DNA of 64,000 bases from a virus: positions 22,774-86,773 of IMG/VR virus record IMGVR_UViG_3300032053_004772. One strand, written 5' to 3'. How positions within the stretch are numbered: the first letter of the stretch is position 1; every line of letters begins with the position of its first letter. Below, piece by piece: positions 19,776-54,039 of the stretch. The notes under the pieces are model-generated. The model ran no database searches. It saw only the letters and a list, made by a program, of their open reading frames with translations, and was not told where the DNA came from. The position numbers were made by a program, and so were the translations under genes.

Positions 19776-20079
19776 ACTATTTCAAGATGGTCAAATCTAT
19801 AAGAATCAAACGAAACTTCGTATTCGATGTGAGTGCGGCGATATTCTTGGAGCAGCTTCGGCTCTTGTGGGTTTTAAGGATCCAGACGGCCTCTTCGGTT
19901 CGTGGACAGGTGTAATCGAGGATATGACACCGACTGGACATGTGTATAAGGATATTACCGCGACTGGGCAACTAAACGTGAGTGGGGAGTGGAGATTCTG
20001 GCCTATCGTCACGTTTAGTGATGGAGGTGTTGCGCCAGGTAAGGCGATCAGGTTAAGGATCTACGATCAGGGGGAGTAA
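19768..20079 (+). CDS. Small Ig-like/BppU-N-like structural protein
   Basis: KDPDG..G.W.G...G.LN.SG.W.F motif; coupled to the fibre gene. Confidence 0.5.
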   Translation: MAELFQDGQIYKNQTKLRIRCECGDILGAASALVGFKDPDGLFGSWTGVIEDMTPTGHVYKDITATGQLNVSGEWRFWPIVTFSDGGVAPGKAIRLRIYDQGE

Positions 20080-20080
20080 T
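20051..20080 (+). promoter_or_regulatory. Candidate phage-specific promoter (GGTTAAG-N17-AGTAAT)
   Basis: Same bipartite motif as 25725, 38434 and 52398; ATG 6 nt downstream. Confidence 0.5.
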
Positions 20081-20086
20081 ACCTCT

Positions 20087-20692
20087 ATGGGAAAGATTCT
20101 GTTCATCGGGGCTCACACAGATGACGTGGAATTCGGTTGCGGTGGTACAATCGCAAAGATGATCGAGCGCGGAGAGGAAGTATCTGTCGCTGCTCTCTCT
20201 TGGGGATCCTCTCTGTATCCTGAGATGCACCTAGATCAGGAGTTTCAGAACTCGATGCAGATTTTCGGTGTGAAGGCGACGTTTCTAGGAGACTATCAGA
20301 TTCGTCTCTTTCCACTTAGTCGACATAAGATTCTGCAGCATTTGCTGCTAACTCGAGAGCAGGTGCAGCCGGACGTTGTGTTCTTTCCATCCGTTGTCGA
20401 TATACATCAAGATCATCAGACAGTTTATCAAGAGAGTCTTCGAGCGTTTAAGAGAGTCACACACTTCAACTACGAGTTGTTCTGGAACTGTCCAGACTTT
20501 CACCCTCAGTACTACGTCGAGTTGAGCGAGGAGAACTTCACGACTAAAGTGAGAGCGCTGGAGTGTTACGTCTCACAGAAGAATCGTGACTACTTTGATC
20601 TGCACAAGATTCGGGTGTGGGCTGAGTTTCGAGGAGCACAAGTAGGTAAGCAACTTGCCGAAGCGTTTGAAGTAGGAAAGCTTCTCGGATGA
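20087..20692 (+). CDS. PIG-L/LmbE family N-acetyl-sugar deacetylase
   Basis: GAHTDDVEFGCGGTI, DIHQDH, K..AL..Y.SQ, AEAF. Confidence 0.9.
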   Translation: MGKILFIGAHTDDVEFGCGGTIAKMIERGEEVSVAALSWGSSLYPEMHLDQEFQNSMQIFGVKATFLGDYQIRLFPLSRHKILQHLLLTREQVQPDVVFFPSVVDIHQDHQTVYQESLRAFKRVTHFNYELFWNCPDFHPQYYVELSEENFTTKVRALECYVSQKNRDYFDLHKIRVWAEFRGAQVGKQLAEAFEVGKLLG

Positions 20693-21747
20693 AACTGCCT
20701 CGAGTCTTAATCACGGGGGTAGGTGCTCCCGGTACTAGGGGTACGATCTTCTGTCTTCAGAAGAACTTCGATCGGCAGAAGGTGTTTATCCTTGGTACAG
20801 ACTCCGACGTTAGCGCAGTAGGTCGACACTTTGTGGATAGGTTCTTCACGATTCCGTATGCTGAGACTGGAATGCGATATCTGAAAGCTCTGCAGGAGTT
20901 ATGTGAAGAGCATCGAGTTGACGTGATACTTCCTCAGAACACTGCGGAGTTGCTCATCCTTGCCTGTCATCGAGAGTCATTCAAAAGAACTCGCATCTGT
21001 GTTTCTAGCGGTGATGCGATCTGTAAGTCGAACCACAAGATTCGACTGTTACAGGAGTTTCAGAGGGCGAGTCTTCCTTTTCCGACGTACACAGTTGTTA
21101 CAAATGAAGCCGAGTTGATACAGGGTTTAGCCGGATTAAGCTACCCGAGAGAGCAAGTCGTAGTAAAGATTCCAGACGGTTCTGGAGGAAGAGGTGTTCG
21201 AATTATTTCGTCTCGACCTTATAACTGGCACAGTTTCGTGCATGAGAAGCCGAACGCTCTAGAGTGGAACTTAGATCAGCTACTTAAAGTTGCGCGTGAA
21301 GGTTTTCCTTCTCCTCTCTTACTAACAGAGTACCTTCCTGGGAGAGAGTACTCTGTTGACGTGTTTAGAGGACTGAGTACAGAGATTGCGATACCTCGAG
21401 TTCGACTACGAATCCGTAGTGGTATCACGTTTGACACTGAGATCGTTCGGCACGAAGAGATCGAGCGACAGTCTTTGATTGCTGCTCGTGCAATCGATCT
21501 TCGGTACGCGTTCGGCTTTCAGTTTCGAGAGAATGCTCAAGGTAAAGCGCGTGTCATAGAATGCAATCCGAGAGTGCAGGGTACGATGGTAGCCAGTTAC
21601 TTTGCAGGTGCAAACATTCCGTGGATGGCAATACGAGAGGCTCTCGGTCTTACGCAGCATCCAGAGGTTCAGATTCAGACTGCGCGTTTCACTCGATATT
21701 GGGGAGGAGTTGGACTTGTCCACAACGAACGGCCGATCAGTATCTAG
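20689..21747 (+). CDS. ATP-grasp ligase (carbamoyl-phosphate-synthase-like)
   Basis: VLITGVG, K..GSGGRG, EYLPGREYSVD, QF, IECNPR. Confidence 0.9.
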   Translation: MKLPRVLITGVGAPGTRGTIFCLQKNFDRQKVFILGTDSDVSAVGRHFVDRFFTIPYAETGMRYLKALQELCEEHRVDVILPQNTAELLILACHRESFKRTRICVSSGDAICKSNHKIRLLQEFQRASLPFPTYTVVTNEAELIQGLAGLSYPREQVVVKIPDGSGGRGVRIISSRPYNWHSFVHEKPNALEWNLDQLLKVAREGFPSPLLLTEYLPGREYSVDVFRGLSTEIAIPRVRLRIRSGITFDTEIVRHEEIERQSLIAARAIDLRYAFGFQFRENAQGKARVIECNPRVQGTMVASYFAGANIPWMAIREALGLTQHPEVQIQTARFTRYWGGVGLVHNERPISI

Positions 21748-22357
21748 CGTTTTCGGTAGGAGATACCTGTTTCATGTACACTCTCAGTTTGCAGATGGAT
21801 CGGCTTCCGTGGAGGACTACCTTCGACTCGCACAAGCGCACGATCTAGAGACCGTCACGATTTTGGAACATGCACGTCGCATACCGTCTTACAGTGTACA
21901 GCGATATGCAGACACCATTCGAGAGACCTCGAATCGGTTAGGGATCAGAGCGCTAGTAGGATTTGAGGTTAAGCTGGATTCGGATGGTTCGTTGGACATC
22001 AACGATGAGACACTGGCTCTCGCGGATGTAGTGGGATTAGCGGTTCACAAGTTTCCGAATGACTTCATGATGTTTATGAAGGCGTTCTCCTCGGTACTAC
22101 GATTGTGCAGCGACAAGATTCGAGTGTGGGTTCATCCGGGACTATGGTTCGTTCGGAGGGGAATTCTCGAGGAGAAGTTTTTGGTGTATACAGCGATGTT
22201 GAATATCGCTGTAAGTGAGGGTTGGTTTATAGAGTACAATCTGAAGTACAACTTGATCCCGAGATCGTGGCGGAAACTTGTACATCGGAGTAAGTTGGTA
22301 ACCGGCGTTGATGCTCACTCTATAGATGATGTAAGAAAGCATATTCATCTACTATAG
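21716..22357 (+). CDS. PHP-family phosphoesterase
   Basis: HVHS..ADG, EH, G.E, AVH, HP, GVDAH; start inferred from GGAGGAG plus TTG. Confidence 0.8.
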   Translation: MSTTNGRSVSSVFGRRYLFHVHSQFADGSASVEDYLRLAQAHDLETVTILEHARRIPSYSVQRYADTIRETSNRLGIRALVGFEVKLDSDGSLDINDETLALADVVGLAVHKFPNDFMMFMKAFSSVLRLCSDKIRVWVHPGLWFVRRGILEEKFLVYTAMLNIAVSEGWFIEYNLKYNLIPRSWRKLVHRSKLVTGVDAHSIDDVRKHIHLL

Positions 22358-22679: not shown

Positions 22680-23567
22680 ATGAAGGTAGAGTTCAACAAA
22701 GATAGGACGTTCGGAGTAGAGTTCGAAGTGATCGGAAACTACGACGCTGCGCGCTATCAAGTGTTGCAAGGGATCAAGAAACTCTATCGGGAAGGGCGCA
22801 TCACTCACGACGTTGAGGATATCGGTTGCTACGAGCACACAGGAAGCGGGAACGTTAAGTGGGTTATTAAGAACGACACCAGCTTACACGGACACGACAG
22901 GGTCGGGTTCGAGGTGGTTACGCCGGTCCTTAAGGGGTTGGAGGGACTGTACGAGCTCGAGCAAGTAGCAAAGGTGCTTAACAAGCACTCGCACATAGAG
23001 CAGTGCTGCGGTGGGCACGTACATCACGGTGTGAGCGATCTCAATAAGCAGGCGTTCAAGAACCTATACGGTCTGATGAAGAAGTACGAGAGAGTGGTGG
23101 ACTACTTCGTAGCACCCAGCCGGAGACGCAATCAGTATTGCAGCCACCTTCCAGAGGCGGACGTGTTTTTCAGAGACACCAGTGCAGAGCGGCTCTATCA
23201 TCAGTACGATGCCGAGCGGTTCTATCGAGCAGTGATTAGCAGGCTCGGGCGGAGAGCAGTGAACTTCAGCTCCTATGCGATCAGAGGAACGATAGAGTTT
23301 CGGCAGCACCAGGGGACGGTGGACTTTGTGAAGATCAAGCAGTGGATCACTCTGACGCAGGCGTTTATTGAGACGGCCAAGCGGAGGAGCAGTGTTCAGT
23401 ATCAGGTGCGCGACGCACTCTCGATCGACAATCTCTTTGCGGATCTCAATTGGGTGAAGGTCTCTGTGACGGACGAGATCAGTGAGGAGATCGTTCAGGC
23501 GCGGACGTTCCTGCGGGAGCGCTATCGGACGTTCAGGCAGGCCGGCGCGACAGAAGCGGTCGCGTAA
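22680..23567 (+). CDS. Amidoligase (COOH-NH2 ligase family)
   Basis: RTFGVEFE, W.IKND.SL, EVVTPVL, CGGHVH, GTIEFRQHQGT. Confidence 0.9.
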   Translation: MKVEFNKDRTFGVEFEVIGNYDAARYQVLQGIKKLYREGRITHDVEDIGCYEHTGSGNVKWVIKNDTSLHGHDRVGFEVVTPVLKGLEGLYELEQVAKVLNKHSHIEQCCGGHVHHGVSDLNKQAFKNLYGLMKKYERVVDYFVAPSRRRNQYCSHLPEADVFFRDTSAERLYHQYDAERFYRAVISRLGRRAVNFSSYAIRGTIEFRQHQGTVDFVKIKQWITLTQAFIETAKRRSSVQYQVRDALSIDNLFADLNWVKVSVTDEISEEIVQARTFLRERYRTFRQAGATEAVA

Positions 23568-23572
23568 GGAGG

Positions 23573-23809
23573 ATGAAGTTGAAGATTCGGTGGAAAGATC
23601 ATACGATCAAAGGTACGCCAGAGGAGATCGTGCGAACGTTGAGAACGGAGATTGCTTGGGACGCACCAAAGACGGATCAGAGGTATATGAACGAGGTTGC
23701 CGATCGGGTGCTCTATTTGTACGGAATGATGATACCGACCGACGATCCAGAGGAGTTTCTGCAGGCGCTGGCAGCGATCCAAGAGGTGAAAGTGAAGGAG
23801 GACGAGTAG
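23573..23809 (+). CDS. Hypothetical protein in the amidoligase operon
   Basis: SD AGGAGG; lies between amidoligase and GATase. Confidence 0.6.
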   Translation: MKLKIRWKDHTIKGTPEEIVRTLRTEIAWDAPKTDQRYMNEVADRVLYLYGMMIPTDDPEEFLQALAAIQEVKVKEDE

Positions 23810-24565
23810 ATGTGCGGAATCACTGGCTTTGTTAAGACCGCCGATCGAACGTACGCAACTGAGCCGGTGCTGCGCTCCGTGTTTGAGGTGATGCAGATTC
23901 GTGGAGAGCACGCTAGTGGAATCGCTGCGTTGATGGGAAGCAAGAAGAAGCGAGAGATCGGAGTTGCTAAGGGTAACGTTCCGTCGACCGAGTTCGTACA
24001 GAGAGACGAGTGGAAGGAGTTCGTTCCTCGCGCGAACGTGCTGATCGCGCATACGAGATACGCTGTCTACGGGAATCCGTCCGACAACATTAACAACCAT
24101 CCGCACAGCACCGACGACTACAAGTACTCGTTGATCCACAACGGAATAGTGCACGATCGACCTAAGAGCGTTCGAGGGTTGCTTAAGAGCAAATGTGACT
24201 CTGAGATACTCTTACGGTTGCTCGAAAAGAACGGAGTTGTGAAGGGATTCCGAAAGATCGCGCATATGAAGCGTTCCTCTGTAGCAGTGCTAGTGATCAA
24301 GGCCGACACTGGAGTACTTTATGCGTATCGGAACGAACACTCGCCGCTGGTGTACTGCGATCTGACGACCGAGATCGGAGGGTTGCTCTTTGCTAGCACG
24401 GCCGAGTTGATGGTAGAAGGTATTCGAAAGGCCGGATTCGATTTCGGAGATATCGAACGGCGCTGTGCTCCTATAATTCCAAACGTGGTGTACGCGTTCA
24501 CAACTAAGCGCAGGTATCCGAAGACGAAAGTTCTTACGGAGAGCGTTGTTCAGACAGTGACGTAG
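23810..24565 (+). CDS. Class II (Ntn) glutamine amidotransferase
   Basis: N-terminal MCGI, RG..ASG, HTRYA, NNHP, HNG, DSE. Confidence 0.9.
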   Translation: MCGITGFVKTADRTYATEPVLRSVFEVMQIRGEHASGIAALMGSKKKREIGVAKGNVPSTEFVQRDEWKEFVPRANVLIAHTRYAVYGNPSDNINNHPHSTDDYKYSLIHNGIVHDRPKSVRGLLKSKCDSEILLRLLEKNGVVKGFRKIAHMKRSSVAVLVIKADTGVLYAYRNEHSPLVYCDLTTEIGGLLFASTAELMVEGIRKAGFDFGDIERRCAPIIPNVVYAFTTKRRYPKTKVLTESVVQTVT

Positions 24566-30802: not shown

Positions 30803-31462
30803 ATGCGTCGGGTCGTCTTGATTCTGTCGGGTGGAATGGATTCCACGACTCTTCTTGCTGTGTTGAAGTCAGAACACGATGAGGTGCGTACGCTGACGTT
30901 CAACTACGGTTCGAAGCATAACGAACGAGAGAATTACGCCGCGGATTTGCTTTCAACTACGTACGGCGTAGCAAACAATCTGATCTCTCTGCCGTTTATC
31001 GACAAGCTGTTCAGCTCCGATCTATTGAAGAGCGGAGAAGACGTTCCGAGCGGACACTACACCGATGAGTCACAGCGTCGGACAGTAGTGCCTTTTCGAA
31101 ACGGAATCATGCTGTCGATCGCGGTTGGTTTCGCTGAGTCGATTGGTTTCGACTACGTCGCGTTTGCGAATCACGCCGGTGATCACGCGATCTATCCTGA
31201 CTGTAGAGAGAGATTCGTCTCCGCGCTGGATGCGGCCGCACAAGCGGGAACGTATCTTGGAGTGAAGGTGGTCTCTCCGTTCTTGATGAAGACGAAGACG
31301 GACATCGTTCGGATAGGACATCGTATCGGAGTTCCTTATCATCTCACGTACTCATGCTATCGCGGAGGTGTTAAACACTGTGGTACGTGTGGCACGTGTA
31401 CAGAGCGGAAGGAAGCGTTTCGAGATGCCGGCGTGAAGGATCCGACGGAGTATATAGTATGA
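30803..31462 (+). CDS. queC: 7-cyano-7-deazaguanine synthase
   Basis: SGGMDS PP-loop, TVVPFRN, YPDCR, SCY..G..HCGTCGTC Zn site. Confidence 0.97.
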   Translation: MRRVVLILSGGMDSTTLLAVLKSEHDEVRTLTFNYGSKHNERENYAADLLSTTYGVANNLISLPFIDKLFSSDLLKSGEDVPSGHYTDESQRRTVVPFRNGIMLSIAVGFAESIGFDYVAFANHAGDHAIYPDCRERFVSALDAAAQAGTYLGVKVVSPFLMKTKTDIVRIGHRIGVPYHLTYSCYRGGVKHCGTCGTCTERKEAFRDAGVKDPTEYIV

Positions 31463-32442
31463 TTCGTTTGCACAAGAACGAGTACTCTGGAGAGTATCCG
31501 GATTCATCGTTTGAAGTGTTAAGACATTACTGCGATGGAACACAACTGAAGAAGCAATTAGCGAAGTACTTCGGAGTGTTGGAGGAGTGGGTCGCTCTGG
31601 AACAAGGAGCGACTCTTGCTCTTGAAAGAATATTCTCGGAGTTTAAGGAGTCTCCGATTCAGATTCCGGCTGACGTGTGGCCGACGTATTTTACGATCTT
31701 AGAACACACTCATAGAAACAAGATCGTGCGTTTGCGTGATGTGTATCTGTCGATTGAGATTACGAGAAGGTTTGTGCAAACTCCTCCACGTCTAACGCCT
31801 CTGATGAGGGATGGATTGTTTGTGATTACCTCTCCAAGTAATCCAGATGGAAGTTTCGTTCCGCAGTCAGAGATTGAGTATCTGTGTAACGAGAAGCGAG
31901 AACTTACTGTGTTGTTGGATATTGCGTATCACGACTACGCAACGACGCCCTACGATATCTCAACGCTGCTGGCACGGCACTCGAATTTGATCCTGGTGTG
32001 GTCGTTCTCAAAGACGTTTGGTTTAGCGGGTGCGAGAGTTGGAGTAATTCTTTGCTCAGATAAAAAATTGCTAGGTAGTCTTTTTCTCTCTCCACTCGGT
32101 ATTAACTCCTATAGTGAACTGCTGTGCTTGCAGGCGTTAGAGAAGCGTGAGTTCTTTGTAGAACAGGTTCAGCGTTTGCGAGGGAGACGCGATCGGTTTA
32201 TCGACACCGTGAATCAGGAGATGACTTCATTTACAGCATACTACTCGGAGGGAAACTTCTGTCTGTTGAAACCACACTCTATGAGATCAGAAGACGCACA
32301 AAGCCGACTGCGCGCGCGAGGTGTAGCGGTCAGACACTTTCCTTCGACGATTTGGGATAAGTATTTGAGAGTAACGATCGGAACCGAAACAGAGATGGTG
32401 TATCTCGTTCATCAGCTGGAGGAGCTAGATGGAAGAGTTTAG
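31459..32442 (+). CDS. PLP-dependent class I/II aminotransferase or decarboxylase (HisC/CobD-like)
   Basis: SPSNPDG, LLDIAY, SFSKTFGLAGARVG (PLP lysine), LRVTIG; ATGA-coupled to queC. Confidence 0.9.
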   Translation: MIRLHKNEYSGEYPDSSFEVLRHYCDGTQLKKQLAKYFGVLEEWVALEQGATLALERIFSEFKESPIQIPADVWPTYFTILEHTHRNKIVRLRDVYLSIEITRRFVQTPPRLTPLMRDGLFVITSPSNPDGSFVPQSEIEYLCNEKRELTVLLDIAYHDYATTPYDISTLLARHSNLILVWSFSKTFGLAGARVGVILCSDKKLLGSLFLSPLGINSYSELLCLQALEKREFFVEQVQRLRGRRDRFIDTVNQEMTSFTAYYSEGNFCLLKPHSMRSEDAQSRLRARGVAVRHFPSTIWDKYLRVTIGTETEMVYLVHQLEELDGRV

Positions 32443-33049
32443 GTATCTCAGGGGTACGAGTCACGAGTGCGTAGACGCGTTCGAGGATCTCTGGTTGAAG
32501 ACGATGCGGAAGTTTCGTCCGATTAGTAAGATCGCGTTGTTCGTGCCGTGTTCGTGGGGAAAACCCTATAGTCAGTCGTACATTCACTTCTTTATCAATC
32601 GAGAGTTACACAAGTTGGGTTTGCTGCATCGGATCGATCGATGGCATGTGTCGAACGCCGGTATCATTCCAGCGTCCGCTGAACTAGATGGTATATCGAA
32701 CGACGTTGGATTCTTTGCATACGATTGGGATTCTCGCTTTCAAACGGAGGAAGAAGAGAAGTATCACGTGCGGAGTACTTCTGAGAGACTATTGATGTGG
32801 AAGTCCTTCGTCGGAAGCAAGTATCCGATCAAGTTTTCTTATCTGCGTCCTGGATCAAAGGGACTTCGAGCAATACAGGCAACACTTTCGGAAGTGACCA
32901 ATCTTGCTCCGAATCCAAACAGACCGAGTGATCTTCCTCCACAGTGTGTTCACGATCCTGATACCGTCTTGATTAGTGCTATCAACTTGCAGTTTTTGGG
33001 AACATCTATCGAGCGCGCTTTGAAGGGAGAAAAGAAGTGGGACGACTGA
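32429..33049 (+). CDS. DUF5591 / archaeosine synthase (ArcS)-like catalytic domain
   Basis: ALFVPCSWGKPYSQS.H resembles the ArcS PC-x3-KPY-x2-S-x2-H motif; GIIP..E..YDW. Confidence 0.75.
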   Translation: MEEFRYLRGTSHECVDAFEDLWLKTMRKFRPISKIALFVPCSWGKPYSQSYIHFFINRELHKLGLLHRIDRWHVSNAGIIPASAELDGISNDVGFFAYDWDSRFQTEEEEKYHVRSTSERLLMWKSFVGSKYPIKFSYLRPGSKGLRAIQATLSEVTNLAPNPNRPSDLPPQCVHDPDTVLISAINLQFLGTSIERALKGEKKWDD

Positions 33050-33651
33050 TTGCAGTGGAGGGCGCTGATTGCACTGGAAAGAGCATACTCGTGGAGAGAC
33101 TGCTTCAAATGCGACCGGAGTTGTGTCACACGGTTGAAGACCATCCGATCGATACGCACTTAGACGCTGTGGCAGATTGGTACGTGAATCCTGAGGATGA
33201 ACACGTGAAGTTTTATCTATATCTTGCGGAGACAGTGCATCTGAGTGTACAGCATCGGAGTTTGTTACAGAAGTATCCGGGAAAGCATGTCATTCTAGAT
33301 CGTAGTGCTTTTTCGATGCTGGCGTACTCAGAGATGTTTACATTACCGATGTCGAGAGAGTGTGCAGATAAAATCCTTCGGACGTTCATCTCTACGATTC
33401 AGATGCCAGACGTCATTCTGTATCTTTATGCTTTATCGGGTACGATCGAGCGACGATTAAGTGCTCGAGGTGATCGATCGGGAGTTTATGAGAAGAGGGC
33501 TCGGACGGATTCGTCGTTCTGGAATCGCTTACATCTCGCGTATCGAAAGTGGTTCGATCTAACGTCTGTAGCTGTAATACCGATTGATACCGACTCGTTA
33601 AGTATTCCGGACGTTTATAATCAGGTCGTTGCTATTTTGGAGGGTTTATGA
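33037..33651 (+). CDS. Thymidylate-kinase-family dNMP kinase
   Basis: AVEGADCTGKS, ILDRS, PD.ILYL. Confidence 0.9.
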   Translation: MGRLIAVEGADCTGKSILVERLLQMRPELCHTVEDHPIDTHLDAVADWYVNPEDEHVKFYLYLAETVHLSVQHRSLLQKYPGKHVILDRSAFSMLAYSEMFTLPMSRECADKILRTFISTIQMPDVILYLYALSGTIERRLSARGDRSGVYEKRARTDSSFWNRLHLAYRKWFDLTSVAVIPIDTDSLSIPDVYNQVVAILEGL

Positions 33652-34430
33652 GAGTGTGCTTCATTACTCCTCGGAAATACTTTCGTGAGTTTTGCTCCCG
33701 ATACAGTGACTACTATCTGTTACTCTCTCACTGGATTGAGTCTGAGCGAGACTTGACACCCTTTCGTGATCGTTATGTGATCCTAGATAACGGCGCGTAC
33801 GAGAACGGGAAGCCTCATGAGATCGATCGATACGTTCAACTCATCGAACGCCTTCGACCTGACGAGATTGTTACTCCTGATGTACGCTTTGATGCGCAAG
33901 CTACCATCACAGCAACGTGTCAGTTTCTGAAGGATCATCATGAGTCTCGTTACAAGTATCTAGCGCCGGTACAGGGAACTAACTGGGAGGAGTGGACTCA
34001 CTGCTACCGAACCTTTCTGGACGATCCAAAAGTAGATGTGATCGGGATCACGGATGTACCTGTAGAGAAGACTGTTCTGAGCTACGCATACGATAAACTA
34101 CCAGCAGCGTTCTCTCGCGTGTACGCGATGGAGTACTTGGATCGTTTAGGTCTGCTACAGAAACCTATTCACATTCTGGGATCGGTTGATCCGGCAGAAT
34201 TGCCGTGGCTGCGATACTTCAGACACGCACGAAGTACGGATTCGAAGATCGCGTTCTGGAACGGGGTTTCGAACGATCGATTGCATCCAACCTCCGGTCT
34301 GAGACGAGGTTCGATCAAGATTGAGAGTATGACATGGGATTGGAGTGGTCAACTAACGCTGCGTCAGCGGCGTAATATCTTATACAACATAGCGGTATTT
34401 AAGGCATTAGCCGGAGGAGGCAAAAAATGA
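33648..34430 (+). CDS. TGT-fold transglycosylase, DpdA-like
   Basis: VILDNGAYE, PDV, APVQG, IHILG, RSTDS follow the TGT/DpdA motif order; in an operon with queC. Confidence 0.75.
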   Translation: MRVCFITPRKYFREFCSRYSDYYLLLSHWIESERDLTPFRDRYVILDNGAYENGKPHEIDRYVQLIERLRPDEIVTPDVRFDAQATITATCQFLKDHHESRYKYLAPVQGTNWEEWTHCYRTFLDDPKVDVIGITDVPVEKTVLSYAYDKLPAAFSRVYAMEYLDRLGLLQKPIHILGSVDPAELPWLRYFRHARSTDSKIAFWNGVSNDRLHPTSGLRRGSIKIESMTWDWSGQLTLRQRRNILYNIAVFKALAGGGKK

Positions 34431-34951
34431 GCCGAGTGCTCAAGACGGAACCCGTACAGGTGATTCAGTGGTACTGTCCGCAGTGTGGTAACGTGGTTAC
34501 CGCGAAGGACGAGAAATGTCCTCACTGTAACGTGGTGTTCGCTCCGATAGACAATCTGTCGGAAGAGGAGCAGCGTATTCAGGAGATCAAGGACAAGATC
34601 GAGGCCGGACTGAAGGATGGAGCGAAGACTCCTTCTCCAGAAGCGGTTGTGGCAGAGGCTTCCGCTCCCGTGGAAGTACAGACTACTCGTGTGGCGGTAC
34701 CCGCGAAACCTGCTGCGGAGAAGAAAGTACCGGGTGTGTACAAACCGCAGACTGGTACGCGTGTAGCTCTGACGTACGAGAAGCTGCAGGGTGAGGGAGC
34801 TGCGTTCGGAGACATCGTTAAGGAGATGATGAGCAAGTTCTCTCTCGACGAAGCGAAAGCGACTCTTACCGTGAAAACTAACATCGACGAGCTAAAGAAG
34901 GCGCGTCAGCTTCCGATCGTGGAAGAGAACGGTAAATGGCGGATCAAGTAG
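34427..34951 (+). CDS. Zn-ribbon plus probable winged-helix protein
   Basis: CPQC...CPHC, Ala/Pro linker, basic C-terminal domain. Confidence 0.5.
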   Translation: MSRVLKTEPVQVIQWYCPQCGNVVTAKDEKCPHCNVVFAPIDNLSEEEQRIQEIKDKIEAGLKDGAKTPSPEAVVAEASAPVEVQTTRVAVPAKPAAEKKVPGVYKPQTGTRVALTYEKLQGEGAAFGDIVKEMMSKFSLDEAKATLTVKTNIDELKKARQLPIVEENGKWRIK

Positions 34952-35379
34952 TTCGATTTAAACTGCTGAGTTCGACCGCGCACGCTCCTACTCGAGCTCA
35001 CGCCGACGATGCCGGTTGGGATCTGTACGCTTCTAGTAATGTCGAGATTGCGTCCTTCTCTTACGGTGAGATACCGTTTGATATCGCTATTGAGCTTCCA
35101 AAACCGTTTGATGGTTGGATCTGGGAAGCGCACATTCGACCGCGCTCTGGTACGCGACGTAAAGGTTTGTTCGCTACCTTCGGTACTATAGATCAAGGGT
35201 ATCGAGGACCACTCAGTGCGATCGTGATTAACATGAATCCGAATCCATTTCTCATTCAAGAAGGTGATCGGATTGCACAACTAGTCGTGGTCGCGATTCC
35301 GACGGTGTTCTTTGAGGCTGCCTTAGCTTTGAGTGAGTCTTTCCGAGGGGAGAGGGGATTCGGAAGTAGTGGCGTATGA
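34936..35379 (+). CDS. dut: dUTPase (trimeric type)
   Basis: AGWDL, RPRSG, GTIDQGYRG, GDRIAQL, RGERGFGSSG. Confidence 0.95.
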   Translation: MADQVVRFKLLSSTAHAPTRAHADDAGWDLYASSNVEIASFSYGEIPFDIAIELPKPFDGWIWEAHIRPRSGTRRKGLFATFGTIDQGYRGPLSAIVINMNPNPFLIQEGDRIAQLVVVAIPTVFFEAALALSESFRGERGFGSSGV

Positions 35380-37823
35380 GAGTACTCAAGAGAGAGTGTA
35401 ACTGCGCTTTGTGCGAGGATAGCGTTTCCAACTCAGGAGTGAGACGCTGTAAGATTGAGGGTACCGGACCGAAGAACGCGAAGGTGATGATTGTCGGTCA
35501 GTGTCCTGGTTCTGATGAAGTGGAACGAGGAGAGAACTTCGTTGGAAGAGCTGGCGAGTTGTTGAACGACATGCTACGAGAGGCTAATATACCTCGAGAA
35601 GAACTGTACTTTGCGAATGTAGTCAAGTGTCGACCGAGTGTGATCTCGGAAACTCGTCGAGTTGATCGAGATCCGAAACCGCAAGAGATTAACGCGTGTC
35701 TTCCGTTGTTGATAGATGAGATACGCACAATTCGTCCTGCCGTGATTGTATCCGTGGGAAACATTCCGATGCGAGTTCTGACCGGAATCTCCGGAGTGAT
35801 GACGTGGCAGACGTGTGTAATGTTTCATCGACTGTTTCAGTGCTGGGTTGTACCGATGATTCATCCAAGTGCGTTATTGCGTTGGGGAGCGACTCAGGGA
35901 TTAGACTTTGATCTATCCGTGATAGCTCTCTCTACAGCTTGGGAGTATCGGGATCGTCGAGTACGAATCACGCGCGTGACTAGACATTTTGTACAAGATG
36001 CGAGTGAGGCTGAGGAGATTGTTGTACAGTGTGTGCAGCACGATGCCTTTGCTTTTGACTTTGAGACGTATCTGAACGGATCGCTTCGTGGATTGGGTCT
36101 ATGTTGGCGTTTCTGTGAAGCATACTATATTCCAGCGAAGTTTTTGACGAGCGCGCTGGTGAGTCGACTTGCAAGAGATGGGCGAGATTCTATGAAGATC
36201 GCTCACAACGTTGCGTTCGATCGAAGTGTTGCTCGATGGACGTGCGGTGTTGAACTGGGTCCGAAGGTCTTCGACACGATGATTGCTCATCATTTGTTAG
36301 AGGAGGAGATGCCGTACGGTCTCAAGGATCTGGAGTGGTTGTATACTGATAAGGGTGGTCGTGCTGACTTGATCAAACCACATTACGGTAAGCCAACTTG
36401 GGACCGATTACCAGAGGATGTTGTTGGTGAGTACTGTTGCGACGATGTGGAGAGCACGTTTCGGCTCTATCATCGATTCAAGAAGGAGCTTGCTCGAGAG
36501 GGGCTTGAGTATCTGTTCGAGAACGTCTCGATGCCGACTACTCGCGTTGTAGAGGAGCTTGAACATAACGGAGTTCCGATCGATGAGAGCGCTATGACTG
36601 CAGTAACAGATCGATGTCTCGAGTTGGAGGAACTCTCTGTAACACGCGTACGAAAGATTGCCGGTGACTTCAACGTTAACTCTGGTCAGCAGTTAGGTGA
36701 CATACTCTACGTGAAATTGAAACTTCCGGAACAGCATACCAAGACAAAGAGGTGGAAGACGGATGGAGAGACGTTAAAGAAGCTGAAACCTCTCGATCGT
36801 TCTGGTATTATCGACGAAATCTTGAATATCAAAAAGCAGAGAAAGATTCTGTCGACGTATATAAAAGGCACTCGAAAAAGGATGCGTAACGGACGAGCAT
36901 ACTACAGTTTCTTGCAACCTGGAACTGTAACGGGAAGACTCTCTAGCGCCTTTCATACCTTTCCGAGGAATGCGGCAATTCGTAGGATTATAGGAGCTTC
37001 TTCGGGGAGGAAACTGATCGATGCAGACTTCGATCAGATTGAGTTGCGTATAGGAGCCTCTCTCTCGGGTGATCCTGAGATGATCAGAGTTTTCCGAGAG
37101 GGCGGAGATATCCACAACGAGGTGGCATGTACTCTCTACGGACTGGAGCCTGGAAGTGAAGTAGACGTTGAGCAGCGAAATACTGCGAAGGGATTTGACT
37201 TCGGTGTTTTCTTCGGGCGAGGAGCTCAGTCGGTTGCTGATGAGATGGGAGTTTCGTTACAAAAAGCACAGGAATGGATTGATCGTTTTGCTCGTCGTTT
37301 TGCAGTGCTGTGGCAGTGGATTGATCAGCAGCATGTGTTTGTTAGGGAGCATTTATACGTGCGAAATCTCTACGGAAGAAGACGTCAGTTGAAGCATGCG
37401 ATAAATCCAGATACGAATATGCAAGCGGAGGCTGAACGACAAGCCGTGAACGCTCCTATTCAGGGTGGCGCAAACGATATAGCGTGTATCGCGTGGGAAC
37501 GAATTCGAGAACGAGCTCAACGTGAAAAGCTAGATGCGAAACTGTGCGGGATTGTACACGACGAGATCTTGGTAGAGACGGACGACGCGAGTGCAGAGTA
37601 CGTAGCTCTGTTAATGAAAGAGGAGATGGAAAAACCGTATCCGAGATTGTTAGTACCTATGACAGCGGACGTTCATATTGTGCAGAACTGGTACGAGCAT
37701 AAGGCATCTAAGACTATTGTGGATCCTACCGATGAGGAACTGCAGGATGACGAAGAGATAGATGGCGTTGATCGAGTTCTTGAATTGGTAGATTGGTCAG
37801 TTGAGCCTCCGGAGGTAATATGA
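35376..37823 (+). CDS. Family A DNA polymerase with N-terminal family-4-like uracil-DNA glycosylase domain
   Basis: UDG: GQCPG..E...FVG.AG, NVVKCRP, HPS; exonuclease: FDFET, HNVAFD, Y...D; polymerase: DFDQIELR, R..AK.F.FG, VHDE. Confidence 0.95.
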   Translation: MRVLKRECNCALCEDSVSNSGVRRCKIEGTGPKNAKVMIVGQCPGSDEVERGENFVGRAGELLNDMLREANIPREELYFANVVKCRPSVISETRRVDRDPKPQEINACLPLLIDEIRTIRPAVIVSVGNIPMRVLTGISGVMTWQTCVMFHRLFQCWVVPMIHPSALLRWGATQGLDFDLSVIALSTAWEYRDRRVRITRVTRHFVQDASEAEEIVVQCVQHDAFAFDFETYLNGSLRGLGLCWRFCEAYYIPAKFLTSALVSRLARDGRDSMKIAHNVAFDRSVARWTCGVELGPKVFDTMIAHHLLEEEMPYGLKDLEWLYTDKGGRADLIKPHYGKPTWDRLPEDVVGEYCCDDVESTFRLYHRFKKELAREGLEYLFENVSMPTTRVVEELEHNGVPIDESAMTAVTDRCLELEELSVTRVRKIAGDFNVNSGQQLGDILYVKLKLPEQHTKTKRWKTDGETLKKLKPLDRSGIIDEILNIKKQRKILSTYIKGTRKRMRNGRAYYSFLQPGTVTGRLSSAFHTFPRNAAIRRIIGASSGRKLIDADFDQIELRIGASLSGDPEMIRVFREGGDIHNEVACTLYGLEPGSEVDVEQRNTAKGFDFGVFFGRGAQSVADEMGVSLQKAQEWIDRFARRFAVLWQWIDQQHVFVREHLYVRNLYGRRRQLKHAINPDTNMQAEAERQAVNAPIQGGANDIACIAWERIRERAQREKLDAKLCGIVHDEILVETDDASAEYVALLMKEEMEKPYPRLLVPMTADVHIVQNWYEHKASKTIVDPTDEELQDDEEIDGVDRVLELVDWSVEPPEVI

Positions 37824-38452
37824 AGAAAGTGGTCTCATTCGACGGTCACGGAACTCTGTTCGAGGAAGCTCCTGATCACTATCGGAAGATTGCGCAGATG
37901 CTTAACACGGAGGAGAGTACTGTACGAGCAGCTTATTCGCGCATCGTTTCTCATCGTCTTCGAGGATATCCTGAGCTTGTTAGAGATGACATTATTCAGA
38001 CGTTCTGGTTGAGCGTGTATCAAGAGATAGCCGGTTTCGTGACAACATTTCGACAGACGAATCTCGGCAAAATGATTCTCGACTACGCGATGACTAAGGA
38101 AGCGTGGGTTCCGAAACTATTAGGAGTTCGTTTTCTGAAGTATGCGAGTAAGCTGGGTTTTCGCTGCATTCTGTGTTCCGAGTGGGATAGTTGGATCGCT
38201 GCTTTGCTAGAGCACTTCGGTTTGAACAAGTTGTTCGATGAGATGTATATCACAGGTTTGCAGGGTCACGCAAAGTGGACTCCGATGTTTTGGAGTTATG
38301 TGCTGTCTGAGGAAGCTCTCTCTCATCCGTCGCGATTGTTGCACGTCGGAAATGATCCTCTTACAGATGAGAAGATTCCGAGAGGTTTAGGAATTGAGAC
38401 ATTCTCAATACGCGCCTCCTTTATGGAGTTTCGGGTTAAGTTGGAATCGTAA
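37820..38452 (+). CDS. HAD-superfamily hydrolase
   Basis: SFDGHGTL, K, HVGND..D. Confidence 0.8.
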   Translation: MKKVVSFDGHGTLFEEAPDHYRKIAQMLNTEESTVRAAYSRIVSHRLRGYPELVRDDIIQTFWLSVYQEIAGFVTTFRQTNLGKMILDYAMTKEAWVPKLLGVRFLKYASKLGFRCILCSEWDSWIAALLEHFGLNKLFDEMYITGLQGHAKWTPMFWSYVLSEEALSHPSRLLHVGNDPLTDEKIPRGLGIETFSIRASFMEFRVKLES

Positions 38453-44928: not shown

Positions 44929-44966
44929 GCGTCAGCACACGACGAAATCTTTCTCAGGAGGTGTTC

Positions 44967-45668
44967 ATGAAGGAGTACAAGCTTCTCAACCTGTATCTGG
45001 TGGCGTTTGTCGCGATTCTGATGCTGTCGAACATCATCGCTGGCAAGTTGATCCAGATCGGCCCTATCATTCTTACGGCAGCGGTGTTTTTGTTCCCGCT
45101 GAGCTACATCTTCGGTGACGTACTCACCGAGGTGTACGGATATGCTCGCTCGAGACGTATTATCTGGTACGGTTTCGGCGCGAACATTCTTATGTCGCTT
45201 ATCTTCTTGATGGCGATCGTGCTACCGTATCCGCCCTTCTGGAAGGGACAAGAAGCGTTCAAGACCGTGCTCGGTCTCGTGCCGAGATTGGTCCTTGCCT
45301 CACTGGTTGGGTACTGGGTCGGATCATTCGGGAACTCCTGGATTCTCGCTCGAATGAAGGAGTGGATGTTGAAGTGGGATCCACAGTCTAAACATCTGTG
45401 GATGAGAACCATCGCGTCCACGATCGTCGGAGAGGGGATCGACACGATCCTGTTCGGTTTCATCGCGTTCATCGGTTCTATGCCATTCGTCGCCGTTCTC
45501 ACAATGATCGGATGGCAGTGGGTTATGAAGGTCGGGGTGGAGGTCGCTTTCACTCCAGTCACGTATCTAGTGATTCACGCTACCAAGAAAGCCGAGGGAA
45601 TGGATGTGGTCGGTACTGAAACATACTCTCCGTTCCGTTGGTTGGTTCGTGATCGAAAGGAAACGTAA
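44967..45668 (+). CDS. yhhQ: Queuosine precursor transporter (YhhQ/Vut_1 family)
   Basis: SNIIAGK, FPLSYIFGDVLTEVYGY..SRR.IW.GF, R..LASL, RTIAST..G..IDT, K...E..FTP.TY. Confidence 0.93.
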   Translation: MKEYKLLNLYLVAFVAILMLSNIIAGKLIQIGPIILTAAVFLFPLSYIFGDVLTEVYGYARSRRIIWYGFGANILMSLIFLMAIVLPYPPFWKGQEAFKTVLGLVPRLVLASLVGYWVGSFGNSWILARMKEWMLKWDPQSKHLWMRTIASTIVGEGIDTILFGFIAFIGSMPFVAVLTMIGWQWVMKVGVEVAFTPVTYLVIHATKKAEGMDVVGTETYSPFRWLVRDRKET

Positions 45669-52923: not shown

Positions 52924-53216
52924 CAATACAAGGAAAGGTAAAACTCTCCGTGAAGATCGTGCACAAGGACTTTCAGGAATGTGATGTTTGGTGTCCTGTG
53001 TGCGGTCATGAGATGGCTCCGGAGACAGATATGTTCGAGAATCGGTATCGCGCTTACATCTGTATGCACGATGGTACACAGTTGTACGTTGTAGTGTACA
53101 GGAGGAAACCAAGTGCCAAAGGTTGGATTGGTGGGTCTGGGGAACATGGGAAAGGTACACTATCGTATCTTGCAGCAGCAACAGCGGGTGTGGAATCTCG
53201 AGTTACGAGTCTGTGA
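52785..53216 (+). CDS. Hypothetical Zn-ribbon protein
   Basis: CPVC...C..D; overlaps both neighbours. Confidence 0.4.
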   Translation: MVTFLWDTQHHHVVQENTARELERWRSSRGNFYWKNDEFSIITRIVTIQGKVKLSVKIVHKDFQECDVWCPVCGHEMAPETDMFENRYRAYICMHDGTQLYVVVYRRKPSAKGWIGGSGEHGKGTLSYLAAATAGVESRVTSL

Positions 53217-54039
53217 TCCGTGCGTCTCTGATCCGTTGATCGCGAAGTCAGATTGGATGTCGTACGAAGATCTTCTGAGTTGGGCTGAGGTGATCATCTT
53301 AGCGACTCCGACGGATACTCACGTGCAACTCGCGCAGCAAGCTGTAGATTGCGGACACTCTGTTTTTGTAGAGAAGCCACTAGCGTTCTCTCTTAAAGAG
53401 GCGAAGAAGTTGAAGTTAAAGGATTCTTCTATCGTTGTAGTGGGATATGTGGAGCGGTTCAGCGCGATCGTTCAAGAGCTGCGAAGGTTGTTGAGGCTTA
53501 CCGCTCGTACTAACGATCTTCCGCTCTTCATCACAACTTCCAGAGTCAATAACGTAGCAGTTCATAGAGCAGAGGGATTGTTGATAGATCTCGGTGTTCA
53601 TGATTTCGATCTGATCACTCATCTGTTTGGAGATCCGAGTTGGATCGACCGAGCGTTAGTTCTTACTTCGAATGGTATTGATGTGTTTGCTAGCGTTGAT
53701 CTGCGACTCGATGCGAGTCTGAGCGTGAACACGAGACTGTCGTGGATCGATGTATCGAAAGCGAGACAGATCTGTGTGTACTCGAAGGACTCTGTGATCC
53801 AGACCGATCTGCTGAATTCTGAGATCGTGTGGTTCGATCGACAGAAGCGCTGCGAGCGATATCGGTGGCAAGCTCGAGGTGGAGAACCAGTGTTAGCTGA
53901 GTTGGAGATGTTCTTTCACTTGGTTAATCGCGGTGGAGAGCGTCCACCAGATGATCAGTTAGGTTTGAAGTCTCTCGCGGTTGCAGATGCCGTACGGATA
54001 GCTCGCGACGGATACGCTACGAGGATTCAATATGAATGA
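53113..54039 (+). CDS. Gfo/Idh/MocA oxidoreductase (WbpB/WlbA-like)
   Basis: GLGNMG, ATPT..H, VEKP, G.VERF, DLGVHD.D. Confidence 0.9.
   Translation: MPKVGLVGLGNMGKVHYRILQQQQRVWNLELRVCDPCVSDPLIAKSDWMSYEDLLSWAEVIILATPTDTHVQLAQQAVDCGHSVFVEKPLAFSLKEAKKLKLKDSSIVVVGYVERFSAIVQELRRLLRLTARTNDLPLFITTSRVNNVAVHRAEGLLIDLGVHDFDLITHLFGDPSWIDRALVLTSNGIDVFASVDLRLDASLSVNTRLSWIDVSKARQICVYSKDSVIQTDLLNSEIVWFDRQKRCERYRWQARGGEPVLAELEMFFHLVNRGGERPPDDQLGLKSLAVADAVRIARDGYATRIQYE

What the first reader, a model, noticed from the sequence alone, without database searches (positions are those of the whole stretch)
30803..34430. Candidate undescribed 7-deazaguanine DNA hypermodification operon: QueC, PLP enzyme, ArcS-like DUF5591, dNMP kinase, DpdA-like
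Seen: five genes joined by overlapping start/stop regions, carrying QueC, HisC/CobD-type PLP, PC-x3-KPY-x2-S-x2-H, TMK and TGT-like motifs. Established: phages use QueC plus DpdA-type transglycosylases to put preQ0 derivatives in DNA. Archaeal ArcS adds lysine to the preQ0 nitrile and needs the radical-SAM partner RaSEA to reach archaeosine. Inference: no RaSEA or QueF is visible, and a PLP enzyme sits between queC and the ArcS-like gene. It may make an amine donor (as CobD decarboxylates Thr-phosphate), or decarboxylate or cleave the amino acid added to preQ0. Either route would give a new N-substituted amidine base or a radical-free route to dG+. I do not know this combination as a described pathway.
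Basis: partly seen in the sequence, partly recalled or inferred. Interest (0 to 1): 0.9.

Follow-up and report, generated by a model that had tools for sequence, protein, structure and literature searches.

The report
Phage deazaguanine operon with aminotransferase–ArcS2 cassette
An uncultured sediment phage that swaps guanine in its DNA for a 7-deazaguanine carries a linked pair of genes, a vitamin-B6 aminotransferase and an archaeosine-synthase core enzyme, that recurs in cyanophages and probably makes a DNA base, or a route to one, not yet described.

Summary
Five translationally coupled + strand genes encode QueC, a HisC/CobD-like PLP aminotransferase, a 206-aa ArcS2-type DUF5591 protein with a complete PC-x3-KPY-x2-S-x2-H motif, a divergent dNMP kinase, and a DpdA3-family transglycosylase with a TGT fold.

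QueC + ArcS2 + DpdA is a known kind (Vibrio phage nt-1, dG+). The PLP partner is the new part.

- **Cassette:** a collinear relative (L101) has QueC-kinase-DpdA3 without the PLP and ArcS2-like genes, so these two form one indel unit.
- **Second lineage:** two cyanophage isolates and two IMG/VR contigs carry a PLP gene directly before the ArcS2-like gene (QueC-PLP-ArcS2-like in the two contigs). There the PLP enzyme is class III and ArcS2 is fused to a HAD phosphatase.
- **Archaeal contrast:** archaeal homologues sit beside, or are fused to, a RaSEA-like radical-SAM protein. The complete phage genome has none.
- **Outside the window:** FolE, QueD and QueE lie elsewhere in the genome.

My reading: the aminotransferase makes or tailors the amine that ArcS2 adds to the preQ0 nitrile, giving an N-substituted amidine base. 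A radical-free route to dG+ is the main rival. No chemistry was tested.

The scan noted PLP-bearing deazaguanine clusters on other DNA before (e1-6137021, e1-5915061).

The parts
30803..31462 (+). QueC, 7-cyano-7-deazaguanine (preQ0) synthase, 219 aa, no GATase domain
   Evidence: Pfam PF06508 6.3e-61. TIGR00364 183.3 bits, over cut-off 150.3. 55-60% identical to QueC of L101 and L007.
31459..32442 (+). HisC/CobD-like fold-type-I PLP aminotransferase, 327 aa (an upstream GTG at 31387 is also open). First gene of the two-gene cassette.
   Evidence: PF00155 7e-30. hisC 144 bits and CobD 106 bits, both under cut-off. PDB best hits are histidinol-phosphate aminotransferases, 8e-17. SFSK lysine and invariant D154, Y157, K185, R193, R292, R304 in alignment A5. 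Absent from collinear L101.
32429..33049 (+). ArcS2-type DUF5591 protein (archaeosine-synthase C1 core only), 206 aa. Second gene of the cassette.
   Evidence: Motif PCSWGKPYSQSYIH at residues 40-53. PF17884 22.9 bits, under cut-off. C41, K45, P46, S50 invariant in 22 sequences. 30% identical to the cyanophage DUF5591 protein, E 3e-22. PDB profile best hit is 2q07, E 0.064. In the phage-type clade, support 100/99.
33037..33651 (+). Divergent dNMP (thymidylate-type) kinase, 204 aa. Part of the conserved backbone with DpdA3.
   Evidence: PF02223 35.9 bits and PF01712 35.4 bits. phrog_761 1.5e-21. TIGR00041 51 bits, under cut-off 83. 39% identical to the kinase between QueC and DpdA3 in L101.
33648..34430 (+). 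DpdA3-family 7-deazaguanine DNA transglycosylase, 260 aa, TGT fold, no C-terminal extension
   Evidence: tblastn hits in 31 phage records, all of Campylobacter, Bacillus, Cellulophaga, Flavobacterium, Weizmannia or Chryseobacterium phages. phmmer 1e-12 to 3e-19 against phiST CGPG_00065 and immuto gp206 'DNA guanine transglycosylase'. AF2 pLDDT 90.7. Foldseek top hits are TGT, Cap10, ArcTGT and DpdA 7ui4.
34427..34951 (+). Zn-ribbon protein that follows DpdA3 in this phage and in L101; function unknown
   Evidence: Zn_ribbon_3 1.1e-5, under cut-off. 36% identical to the gene after DpdA3 in L101.
44961..45668 (+). YhhQ/Vut_1 family transporter (preQ0/preQ1 salvage type)
   Evidence: PF02592 6.5e-50. 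The same family neighbours archaeal ArcS2-like genes in 5 of 110 neighbour ORFs.

Best explanation
This is a phage operon for 7-deazaguanine modification of DNA. FolE, QueD and QueE (encoded 50 kb away in the same genome) and QueC make preQ0. A DpdA3-family TGT-fold enzyme exchanges guanine in DNA for the deazaguanine base. A two-gene cassette lies between queC and the kinase gene. It holds a HisC/CobD-like PLP aminotransferase and an ArcS2-type amidine synthase, and it converts the nitrile of preQ0 into an amidine. Shown here: gene identities, the cassette behaviour, its recurrence with a different PLP family in a second lineage, and the absence of RaSEA. Inferred: ArcS2-like uses its conserved Cys/Lys motif to add a primary amine to the nitrile, as archaeal ArcS adds lysine. 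The aminotransferase supplies that amine by transaminating a carbonyl precursor, probably a phosphorylated one, or tailors the amino-acid adduct. The final base would then be an N-substituted 7-formamidino-7-deazaguanine rather than plain dG+. My odds: the two genes form a functional pair acting on the preQ0 nitrile, 0.7. Within that, an N-substituted amidine product about 0.5, plain dG+ about 0.2 to 0.3, other chemistry the rest.
For: 1) Cassette: L101 is collinear with the window over seven genes (26-55% identity). Its QueC stop at 1469 is followed by the kinase start at 1476, so the PLP and ArcS2-like genes are present or absent together. 2) Conservation: L007 has QueC-PLP-ArcS2-like at 60, 37 and 54% identity. 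P0007, P0160 and P0169 (ArcS2-like, PLP, DpdA3-like) each list 13,375 bp as the longest contig. 3) Second lineage: Synechococcus phage Yong-L2-223 has a class III aminotransferase gene directly upstream of a HAD::DUF5591 gene. IMG/VR L059 and L060 have QueE-QueC-class III aminotransferase-HAD::ArcS2-like-x-FolE-DpdA with overlapping ends. The two PLP proteins are not alignable, and the two DpdA types are only remotely alike (E 0.003). 4) Careful ML tree of 46 ArcS2-like domains: the seven phage-type rows are one side of a branch, support 100/99. 5) Archaeal homologues: a RaSEA-like radical-SAM gene lies on the same strand within 800 bp in 21 of 35 metagenome loci and 11 of 12 GTDB loci. Its only or best NCBIfam hit is TIGR01210 RaSEA in 6 of 6 tested. 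13 of 18 long representatives are RaSEA-like::DUF5591 fusions. 6) No RaSEA-like, QueF, ThyA or ThyX in the complete genome. 7) Published data (passages read): nt-1 ArcS2 with DpdA2 gave only 4-7 dG+ per 10^6 nt while dPreQ0 fell from 926-1607 to 0-11; the authors call phage ArcS function 'less clear'; T. kodakarensis ArcS adds lysine and needs RaSEA to reach G+. 8) Both PLP families include enzymes that act on amines without an alpha-carboxylate (histidinol phosphate; omega-amines). The order aminotransferase, HAD, ArcS2 in lineage B matches make, dephosphorylate, attach. This last point is inference from family knowledge.
Against: No chemistry was tested. The window protein's own DUF5591 hit is under Pfam's cut-off. 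The RaSEA-like proteins score 34-58 bits against a 212-bit cut-off and are shorter than the model. The cassette is rare: 0 of 59 DpdA3-like IMG/VR loci carry ArcS2-like or either PLP type within 8 kb. Two members of the phage-type clade (L009, L031) show QueC and a kinase but no PLP gene on their short contigs. nt-1 ArcS2 has no PLP neighbour and still yields some dG+. The window's HAD gene (37820-38452) is not of the cyanophage HAD subfamily (hhalign probability 7%), so the phosphatase theme is weak in this lineage. Several loci are duplicates (4 identical pairs), so the RaSEA counts overstate independence: 28 of 43 distinct. Long branches in the tree call for caution.
Confidence: 0.6

Rival explanations
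1. The PLP enzyme is a functional replacement for RaSEA. ArcS2-like adds an amino acid to the nitrile, the PLP enzyme removes its carbon skeleton without radical chemistry, and the end product is ordinary dG+.
For: The PLP gene takes the place beside ArcS2-like that RaSEA-like genes hold in archaea, as neighbours or as fusions. dG+ is an established phage DNA base, and ArcS2 is linked to it (PMC10516641). No other amidine-finishing enzyme is in the genome.
Against: Inference from PLP chemistry: an aminotransferase bound at the alpha-amine cannot reach the C-epsilon to N bond that RaSEA cleaves in preQ0-Lys. A beta- or gamma-linked donor and lyase chemistry would be needed, whereas both recruited families are classical aminotransferases. 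Phages that want dG+ have one-protein solutions, Gat-QueC or QueF-L. The HAD fusion in lineage B has no role in this scheme.
Confidence: 0.22
2. The modification is made on mononucleotides and incorporated during replication. ArcS2-like acts on dPreQ0 5'-monophosphate, the adjacent kinase phosphorylates the modified dNMP, and the phage PolA incorporates it. DpdA3 would act on nucleotides or only top up.
For: T. kodakarensis ArcS accepts preQ0 nucleoside 5'-monophosphate but not the free base (PMC11298593, section read). A dNMP kinase adjoins DpdA3 here and in L101; one is annotated three genes downstream in phage immuto; one adjoins ArcS2-like in L009. DpdA3 phages show complete G replacement, and DpdA3 could not be shown active in E. 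coli. dUTPase and PolA follow directly.
Against: The kinase stays when the cassette is absent (L101), so it is not tied to ArcS2-like. No enzyme that would make a deazaguanine deoxynucleotide from the base is identified. TGT-fold enzymes are known only on polynucleotides (one search hits). The published view is post-replicative insertion.
Confidence: 0.12
3. The PLP gene is unrelated to the deazaguanine pathway. It would be an auxiliary amino-acid metabolism gene, or part of another DNA modification such as thymidine hypermodification, and sits there by chance.
For: Its best models are hisC and CobD. PolA carries an N-terminal UDG domain, which a 2026 paper associates with T-modified phages (PMC13697223, passages read). 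PLP enzymes act in thymidine hypermodification (PMC11472151, abstract seen in the listing).
Against: It scores well under the hisC and CobD cut-offs. It is gained and lost with ArcS2-like. A different PLP family holds the same position in another lineage. The genome has no ThyA or ThyX homologue to make 5-hmdU.
Confidence: 0.06

Closest known systems
Vibrio phage nt-1 system: FolE/QueD/QueE/QueC + DpdA2 + ArcS2 (VPFG_00169), giving dG+ in DNA (PMC10516641; PMC6884629)
   Same: A stand-alone DUF5591 (ArcS C1 core) protein in a phage preQ0/DpdA cluster. No RaSEA.
   Different: nt-1 has no PLP gene beside ArcS2 and uses DpdA2. Its ArcS2 is very distant: not found by tblastn with the window protein and a very long branch. 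Only traces of dG+ were measured.
Archaeal ArcS-RaSEA archaeosine synthase (PMC11298593)
   Same: The same catalytic motif, PC-x3-KPY-x2-S-x2-H. Expected chemistry: amine addition to the preQ0 nitrile.
   Different: The window protein is the C1 core only (206 aa, against a 575-position model; 18 bits against a 440-bit cut-off). It has no TGT-like N domain and no PUA. The partner is a PLP aminotransferase, not a radical-SAM enzyme. The target is presumably DNA.
DpdA3 phages: Cellulophaga phiST, Campylobacter CP220, Flavobacterium immuto_2-6A (PMC10516641)
   Same: Gene 5 is a member of this transglycosylase family. The genes cluster with preQ0 genes and lie just before PolA.
   Different: None of 59 DpdA3-like IMG/VR loci, and none of the four isolate loci examined, has ArcS2-like or the PLP gene nearby. 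Those phages carry other 7-deazaguanine derivatives (dADG, dDG, fdPreQ1 per the paper).
Synechococcus phages Yong-L2-223 and Ssp-JY38, and IMG/VR L059 and L060 (no paper found in the held library)
   Same: PLP aminotransferase directly before ArcS2-like, QueC-PLP-ArcS2-like in L059 and L060, with translational coupling. Same ArcS2-like clade.
   Different: The PLP enzyme is class III (PF00202). ArcS2-like carries an N-terminal HAD phosphatase domain. The DpdA is of another subfamily. There is no kinase in the block.
Gat-QueC of Enterobacteria phage 9g (dG+ synthase)
   Same: Converts preQ0 to an amidine for DNA.
   Different: The window QueC has no GATase domain (219 aa). The stand-alone class II GATase at 23810-24565 is LUZ24 gp19-like and sits beside an amidoligase, not beside QueC.

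Membership tests
QueC (PF06508 / TIGR00364) | Score over the curated cut-offs across the full length | tested here: met
   206 bits against 22. 183.3 bits against 150.3.
DpdA3 (Cui et al. 2023) | Sequence homology to the founding members (phiST CGPG_00065, Campylobacter phages, immuto DpdA) | tested here: met
   tblastn hits in 31 records. phmmer 1.7e-15 to CGPG_00065 and 1.3e-12 to immuto gp206.
DpdA3 (Cui et al. 2023) | TGT (beta/alpha)8 fold | tested here: met
   AF2 model pLDDT 90.7. The first 50 Foldseek PDB hits are TGT, ArcTGT, QTRT1, Cap10 or DpdA, best E 6.8e-7, TM 0.45-0.65. A sequence profile against PDB found nothing significant.
DpdA3 (Cui et al. 2023) | Embedded in 7-deazaguanine synthesis genes | tested here: met
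   QueC lies three genes upstream. Among 59 relatives' loci, QueE is nearby in 40, FolE in 38, QueD in 33 and QueC in 17.
DpdA3 (Cui et al. 2023) | Inserts a 7-deazaguanine base into DNA | not testable with these tools
   The paper itself could not show DpdA3 activity in E. coli.
ArcS2 / DUF5591 (PF17884) | Pfam score over the gathering cut-off | tested here: inconclusive
   22.9 bits against 26 for the window protein. Relatives at 30-34% identity score 39.6 and 40.1 bits.
ArcS2 / DUF5591 (PF17884) | C1 motif PC-x3-KPY-x2-S-x2-H (motif as quoted in PMC10516641) | tested here: met
   PCSWGKPYSQSYIH at residues 40-53. C41, K45, P46 and S50 are invariant in 22 sequences.
Canonical ArcS (NF040592) | Full architecture (TGT-like N, C1, C2, PUA) and score over cut-off | tested here: not met
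   18.4 bits against 440. Only residues 28-63 match positions 288-324 of 575. The protein is 206 aa.
ArcS-RaSEA system | A RaSEA radical-SAM partner | tested here: not met
   No match to TIGR01210 at E<=1 in the complete genome and none to a profile of archaeal RaSEA-like neighbours. The genome's two radical-SAM genes are QueE and a B12-binding enzyme between glycosyltransferases.
Histidinol-phosphate aminotransferase HisC (TIGR01141) / CobD (TIGR01140) | Score over the equivalog cut-off | tested here: not met
   144.3 bits against 276.55, and 106.3 bits against 290.55. It is a member of the fold and family (PF00155, 104.8 bits against 19.7) but not an equivalog.
Fold-type I PLP enzyme | Schiff-base lysine and PLP-binding residues | tested here: met
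   SFSK with K185, and D154, Y157 and R193 invariant in A5. These align with the lysine region of HisC 3hdo. The roles of the residues are recalled, not tested.
dTMP kinase (TIGR00041) | Score over the equivalog cut-off | tested here: not met
   51.3 bits against 83.25. Pfam Thymidylate_kin 35.9 against 27 is met. No PDB hit at 1e-3.

The most novel reading that the evidence does not exclude
The aminotransferase plus ArcS2 cassette makes a so far unknown DNA base: a 7-deazaguanine whose nitrile has been turned into an N-substituted amidine carrying a small amine (an amino alcohol, a diamine or an amino-acid remnant) built or trimmed by the PLP enzyme. DpdA3 would install it at most or all guanines. 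The same logic, with a swapped PLP family and a fused phosphatase, would operate in cultured cyanophages.
Probability: 0.4. Interest if true: 0.85.

Novelty: new variant of a known kind. Interest (0 to 1): 0.78.

Why it matters
Eight 7-deazaguanine derivatives are known in phage DNA. The role of phage ArcS homologues is the least understood step: the authors of the two key papers say so, and their ArcS2 assay left most preQ0 unaccounted for.

A PLP partner is gained and lost with ArcS2. It was recruited from two different aminotransferase families. It stands where archaea have RaSEA. Together these give a concrete, testable explanation: either a new hypermodified guanine, or a radical-free route to archaeosine.

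Two of the carriers are cultured Synechococcus phages, so one nucleoside LC-MS/MS run on virion DNA could settle it. New bases of this kind matter for phage resistance to restriction and CRISPR, for sequencing artefacts, and as enzyme tools for DNA labelling.

Tried and rejected
**Fold and structure**
- Single-sequence AF2 of gene 5 failed (pLDDT 34). It was repeated with an 8-row alignment.
- A PDB sequence profile of the DpdA3-like alignment found nothing significant.

**Searches that found nothing or added little**
- megablast of the operon against phages: no match.
- The search for related loci in IMG/VR with the ArcS2-like protein or with A1: no relatives.
- The A4 scan in IMG/VR gave 41 loci, but only 2 covered the DUF5591 part. 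The other 39 matched only the small HAD domain and were not analysed.

**Complex prediction**
- Complex prediction of the PLP enzyme with ArcS2-like: no verdict (score 0.00, controls not run). It is evidence for nothing.

**Ideas tested and set aside**
- Thymidine hypermodification rival: no ThyA or ThyX in the genome.
- Stand-alone GATase as a trans Gat-QueC: it is LUZ24 gp19-like and sits beside an amidoligase. Rejected.
- B12 radical-SAM gene (G000:C1 19824-21062) as RaSEA: best models are HpnJ, ApyD and BchE types, and it lies between two glycosyltransferases. Rejected.
- Class V aminotransferase and phosphoserine-phosphatase-like HAD near some archaeal homologues: on the opposite strand, in related loci, alongside RaSEA-like. 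Judged housekeeping neighbours.
- Window HAD against the cyanophage HAD domain: not the same subfamily.

**Sequencing runs**
- 12 sediment-metagenome runs hold the stretch, all kept as contigs. No RNA holder is listed, and no raw reads, so neither expression nor a modification signal could be examined.

**Limits**
That they share one contig is inferred from the equal 'longest contig' length.
These are less sensitive, notably for kinases and PLP enzymes.
- Supplements are closed. Supplementary Data S1 of PMC10516641 and of PMC6884629 list phage ArcS homologues and could already include the cyanophage type.

**Literature**
- No description of a PLP or aminotransferase partner of ArcS2 was found in searches of the held library. 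Subscription papers are not covered.

**Rows dropped**
- One search used 110 neighbour ORFs (at least 80 aa, up to three per side) from 32 of 35 metagenome loci. L009, L016 and L030 were left out by my greedy gene caller.
- The trees used only domains covering at least 150 profile positions (47 rows). The careful tree left out nt-1 (L058) for its 8.5-unit branch.

Full report
**Source and setting.** The window is bases 22774-86773 of a complete 86,773-bp virus record with direct terminal repeats. All long ORFs lie on the + strand. The stretch occurs in contigs of 12 sediment-metagenome runs.

**Observation.** ORFs at 30803-31462, 31387/31459-32442, 32429-33049, 33037-33651 and 33648-34430 overlap at their ends by 4, 14, 13 and 4 nt. 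The chain continues into a Zn-ribbon gene, a dUTPase gene and a UDG-PolA gene.
- Gene 1 is QueC, over the curated cut-offs.
- Gene 2 is a class I/II aminotransferase. Its best models are hisC (144 bits) and CobD (106 bits), both far under their equivalog cut-offs. Its nearest solved structures are histidinol-phosphate aminotransferases. The SFSK lysine and the usual PLP-binding residues are conserved.
- Gene 3 (206 aa) hits DUF5591 just under Pfam's cut-off. It carries the complete ArcS C1 motif as PCSWGKPYSQSYIH. Its relatives score over the cut-off.
- Gene 4 is a divergent thymidylate-type kinase.
- Gene 5 has no Pfam or NCBIfam hit.

**Gene 5 is a DpdA3.** tblastn finds it in 31 phage records, all Campylobacter, Bacillus, Cellulophaga, Flavobacterium, Weizmannia or Chryseobacterium phages. 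The phiST hit is CGPG_00065, the founding DpdA3. The immuto hit is annotated as DNA guanine transglycosylase (paper passages). An AF2 model from an 8-row alignment is confident (pLDDT 90.7). Its first 50 Foldseek hits in the PDB are all TGT-family chains, including DpdA 7ui4. Among 59 IMG/VR loci that encode relatives, QueE is nearby in 40, FolE in 38, QueD in 33 and QueC in 17.

**The preQ0 pathway is complete.** QueD, QueE and FolE lie at about 4183-5662 of the genome, outside the window. A YhhQ transporter lies at 44961-45668. This contradicts an earlier scan note that the phage depends on salvage (e1-6131311).

**What is already known.** DUF5591-only 'ArcS2' proteins of viruses are published. 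nt-1 DpdA2 plus ArcS2 gave dG+ in E. coli (PMC10516641, passages read). The yield was tiny: 4-7 dG+ per 10^6 nt, while dPreQ0 fell from 926-1607 to 0-11. nt-1 virion DNA holds 44 dG+ per 10^6 nt. The authors write that the function of phage ArcS homologues 'is less clear' (PMC6884629). In archaea, ArcS adds lysine to preQ0 in tRNA, and the radical-SAM enzyme RaSEA, bound to ArcS, converts the adduct to G+. ArcS accepts preQ0 nucleoside 5'-phosphate but not the base (PMC11298593, abstract and sections 7 and 12).

**The new element: a PLP-ArcS2 cassette.**
- IMG/VR contig L101 is collinear with the window over seven genes at 26-55% identity: HTH-like, small ORF, QueC, kinase, DpdA3, Zn-ribbon, PolA. 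Its kinase gene starts 7 nt after the QueC stop. The PLP and ArcS2-like genes are therefore present or absent as a unit, and the kinase belongs to the DpdA3 backbone.
- L007 keeps QueC-PLP-ArcS2-like at 60, 37 and 54% identity.
- Database proteins P0007, P0160 and P0169 (ArcS2-like 54%, PLP 37%, DpdA3-like 48%) each list 13,375 bp as the longest contig.
- A sibling phage of about 86.1 kb has the PLP protein at 78% and ArcS2-like at 99% identity.

**A second lineage with another PLP family.** Synechococcus phage Yong-L2-223 has a class III aminotransferase gene immediately upstream of a DUF5591 gene, in a genome with QueE, QueC, QueD, FolE and a DpdA. Ssp-JY38 holds the same DUF5591 hit. IMG/VR L059 and L060 show QueE-QueC-class III aminotransferase-ArcS2-like-x-FolE-DpdA with overlapping gene ends. 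The two PLP proteins cannot be aligned. The two DpdAs are only remotely alike (E 0.003). In this lineage ArcS2-like carries an N-terminal capless HAD domain with a DxDGT motif, whose best PDB hit is 2obb at 9e-10.

**Contrast with archaea.** The ArcS2-like family is small: 181 representatives at E<=1e-3 among 1.8 billion proteins. Its closest cellular members are in Thermoproteota and Helarchaeota MAGs.
- A 230-250-aa radical-SAM gene lies on the same strand within 800 bp in 21 of 35 metagenome loci and 11 of 12 GTDB loci.
- Four pairs of loci are identical, so this is 28 of 43 distinct loci.
- Of the 14 metagenome loci without it, 11 have under 400 bp of flank on one side.
- All six such radical-SAM proteins tested have RaSEA (TIGR01210) as their only or best NCBIfam hit, at 34-58 bits and under the cut-off.
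- Thirteen of 18 representatives of 360 aa or more are fusions of this RaSEA-like domain with DUF5591.
- The phage genome has no such gene. Neither do the stretches held of L001, L002 and L007.

**Tree.** In a careful ML tree of 46 domains, the seven phage-type rows (window, L007, L009, L031, L001, L059, L060) form one side of a branch with support 100/99. All RaSEA-linked rows lie on the other side (quick tree with nt-1). Long branches call for some caution.

**Mechanism.**
- Shown: the gene identities, the cassette behaviour, the double recruitment of aminotransferases, and the absence of RaSEA and QueF.
- Inferred: ArcS2-like adds a primary amine to the nitrile.
- My argument on the PLP step: the C-N bond that RaSEA cleaves lies beyond the reach of alpha-amine PLP chemistry, and both recruited families are plain aminotransferases. 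Both include members that act on amines without a carboxylate (histidinol phosphate; omega-amines). I therefore think the PLP enzyme more likely makes the amine donor, or tailors the adduct, than regenerates plain dG+.
- The order aminotransferase, HAD, ArcS2 in the cyanophage lineage fits 'make an amine phosphate, dephosphorylate it, attach it'. In the window lineage the only HAD gene lies 3.4 kb downstream and is of another subfamily, so this part is weak here.
- The nt-1 mass balance would be explained if ArcS2's main product is an adduct that targeted LC-MS did not look for.

**Rivals.**
- dG+ by a radical-free route: 0.22.
- A nucleotide-pool route using the kinase: 0.12. This concerns where the modification is made, not what the product is, so it can hold together with either product reading. 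L101 shows the kinase is independent of the cassette.
- A PLP gene unrelated to the pathway: 0.06. No ThyA or ThyX is present.

**Novelty.** No paper in the held library links a PLP enzyme to ArcS2. Supplementary tables could not be read. The scan itself noted PLP-bearing deazaguanine clusters on other DNA (e1-6137021, e1-5915061). I did not test those notes.

**Verdict.** This is a real, conserved variant of the phage 7-deazaguanine system with an undescribed enzyme partnership. The product is unknown, and the hypothesis is directly testable on cultured cyanophages.

Noticed in passing
G000:C1 about 18946-21959 (outside the window; L005:95-3108): A B12-binding radical-SAM gene (412 aa; best models HpnJ, ApyD and BchE types) is flanked by a GT1-family and a GT2-family glycosyltransferase in a phage genome. 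The substrate is unknown.
   Followed up: partly
window 35376-37823: PolA with an N-terminal UDG domain and a 3'-5' exonuclease. A 2026 NAR paper links UDG-PolA fusions to T-modified phages, yet this genome has no ThyA or ThyX homologue.
   Followed up: partly
window 22680-24565: An Amidoligase_2 gene is followed by a stand-alone class II glutamine amidotransferase. The latter resembles LUZ24 gp19 and homologues in 148 phage records. Function unknown, and not a Gat-QueC.
   Followed up: partly
proteins P0058-P0084, P0139, P0073: RaSEA-like radical-SAM::DUF5591 fusion proteins of 400-680 aa exist in metagenomes (13 of 18 long representatives). This is a single-chain 'archaeosine synthase' architecture that I did not find described.
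   Followed up: partly
L024, L033, L036, L028 (archaeal loci): Stand-alone ArcS C1 plus a small RaSEA-like pair in Thermoproteota, often with YhhQ upstream (5 of 110 neighbours). This suggests salvage of preQ0 feeding a split archaeosine synthase.
   Followed up: no
L001:9582-10025 (Synechococcus phage Yong-L2-223): An RpiB ribose-5-phosphate isomerase gene starts at the stop of the HAD::ArcS2-like gene. It is not present in L059 or L060. This hints at a sugar-phosphate link in that phage.
   Followed up: no
window 34427-34951: A Zn-ribbon protein is conserved directly after DpdA3 here and in L101 (36% identity). It may be a DNA-binding partner of the short DpdA3.
   Followed up: no
window 53113-57362: GFO/IDH/MocA oxidoreductase, hexapeptide acetyltransferase and UDP-glucose/GDP-mannose dehydrogenase family genes lie in the late part of the window. 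These are nucleotide-sugar tailoring genes without an obvious target.
   Followed up: no
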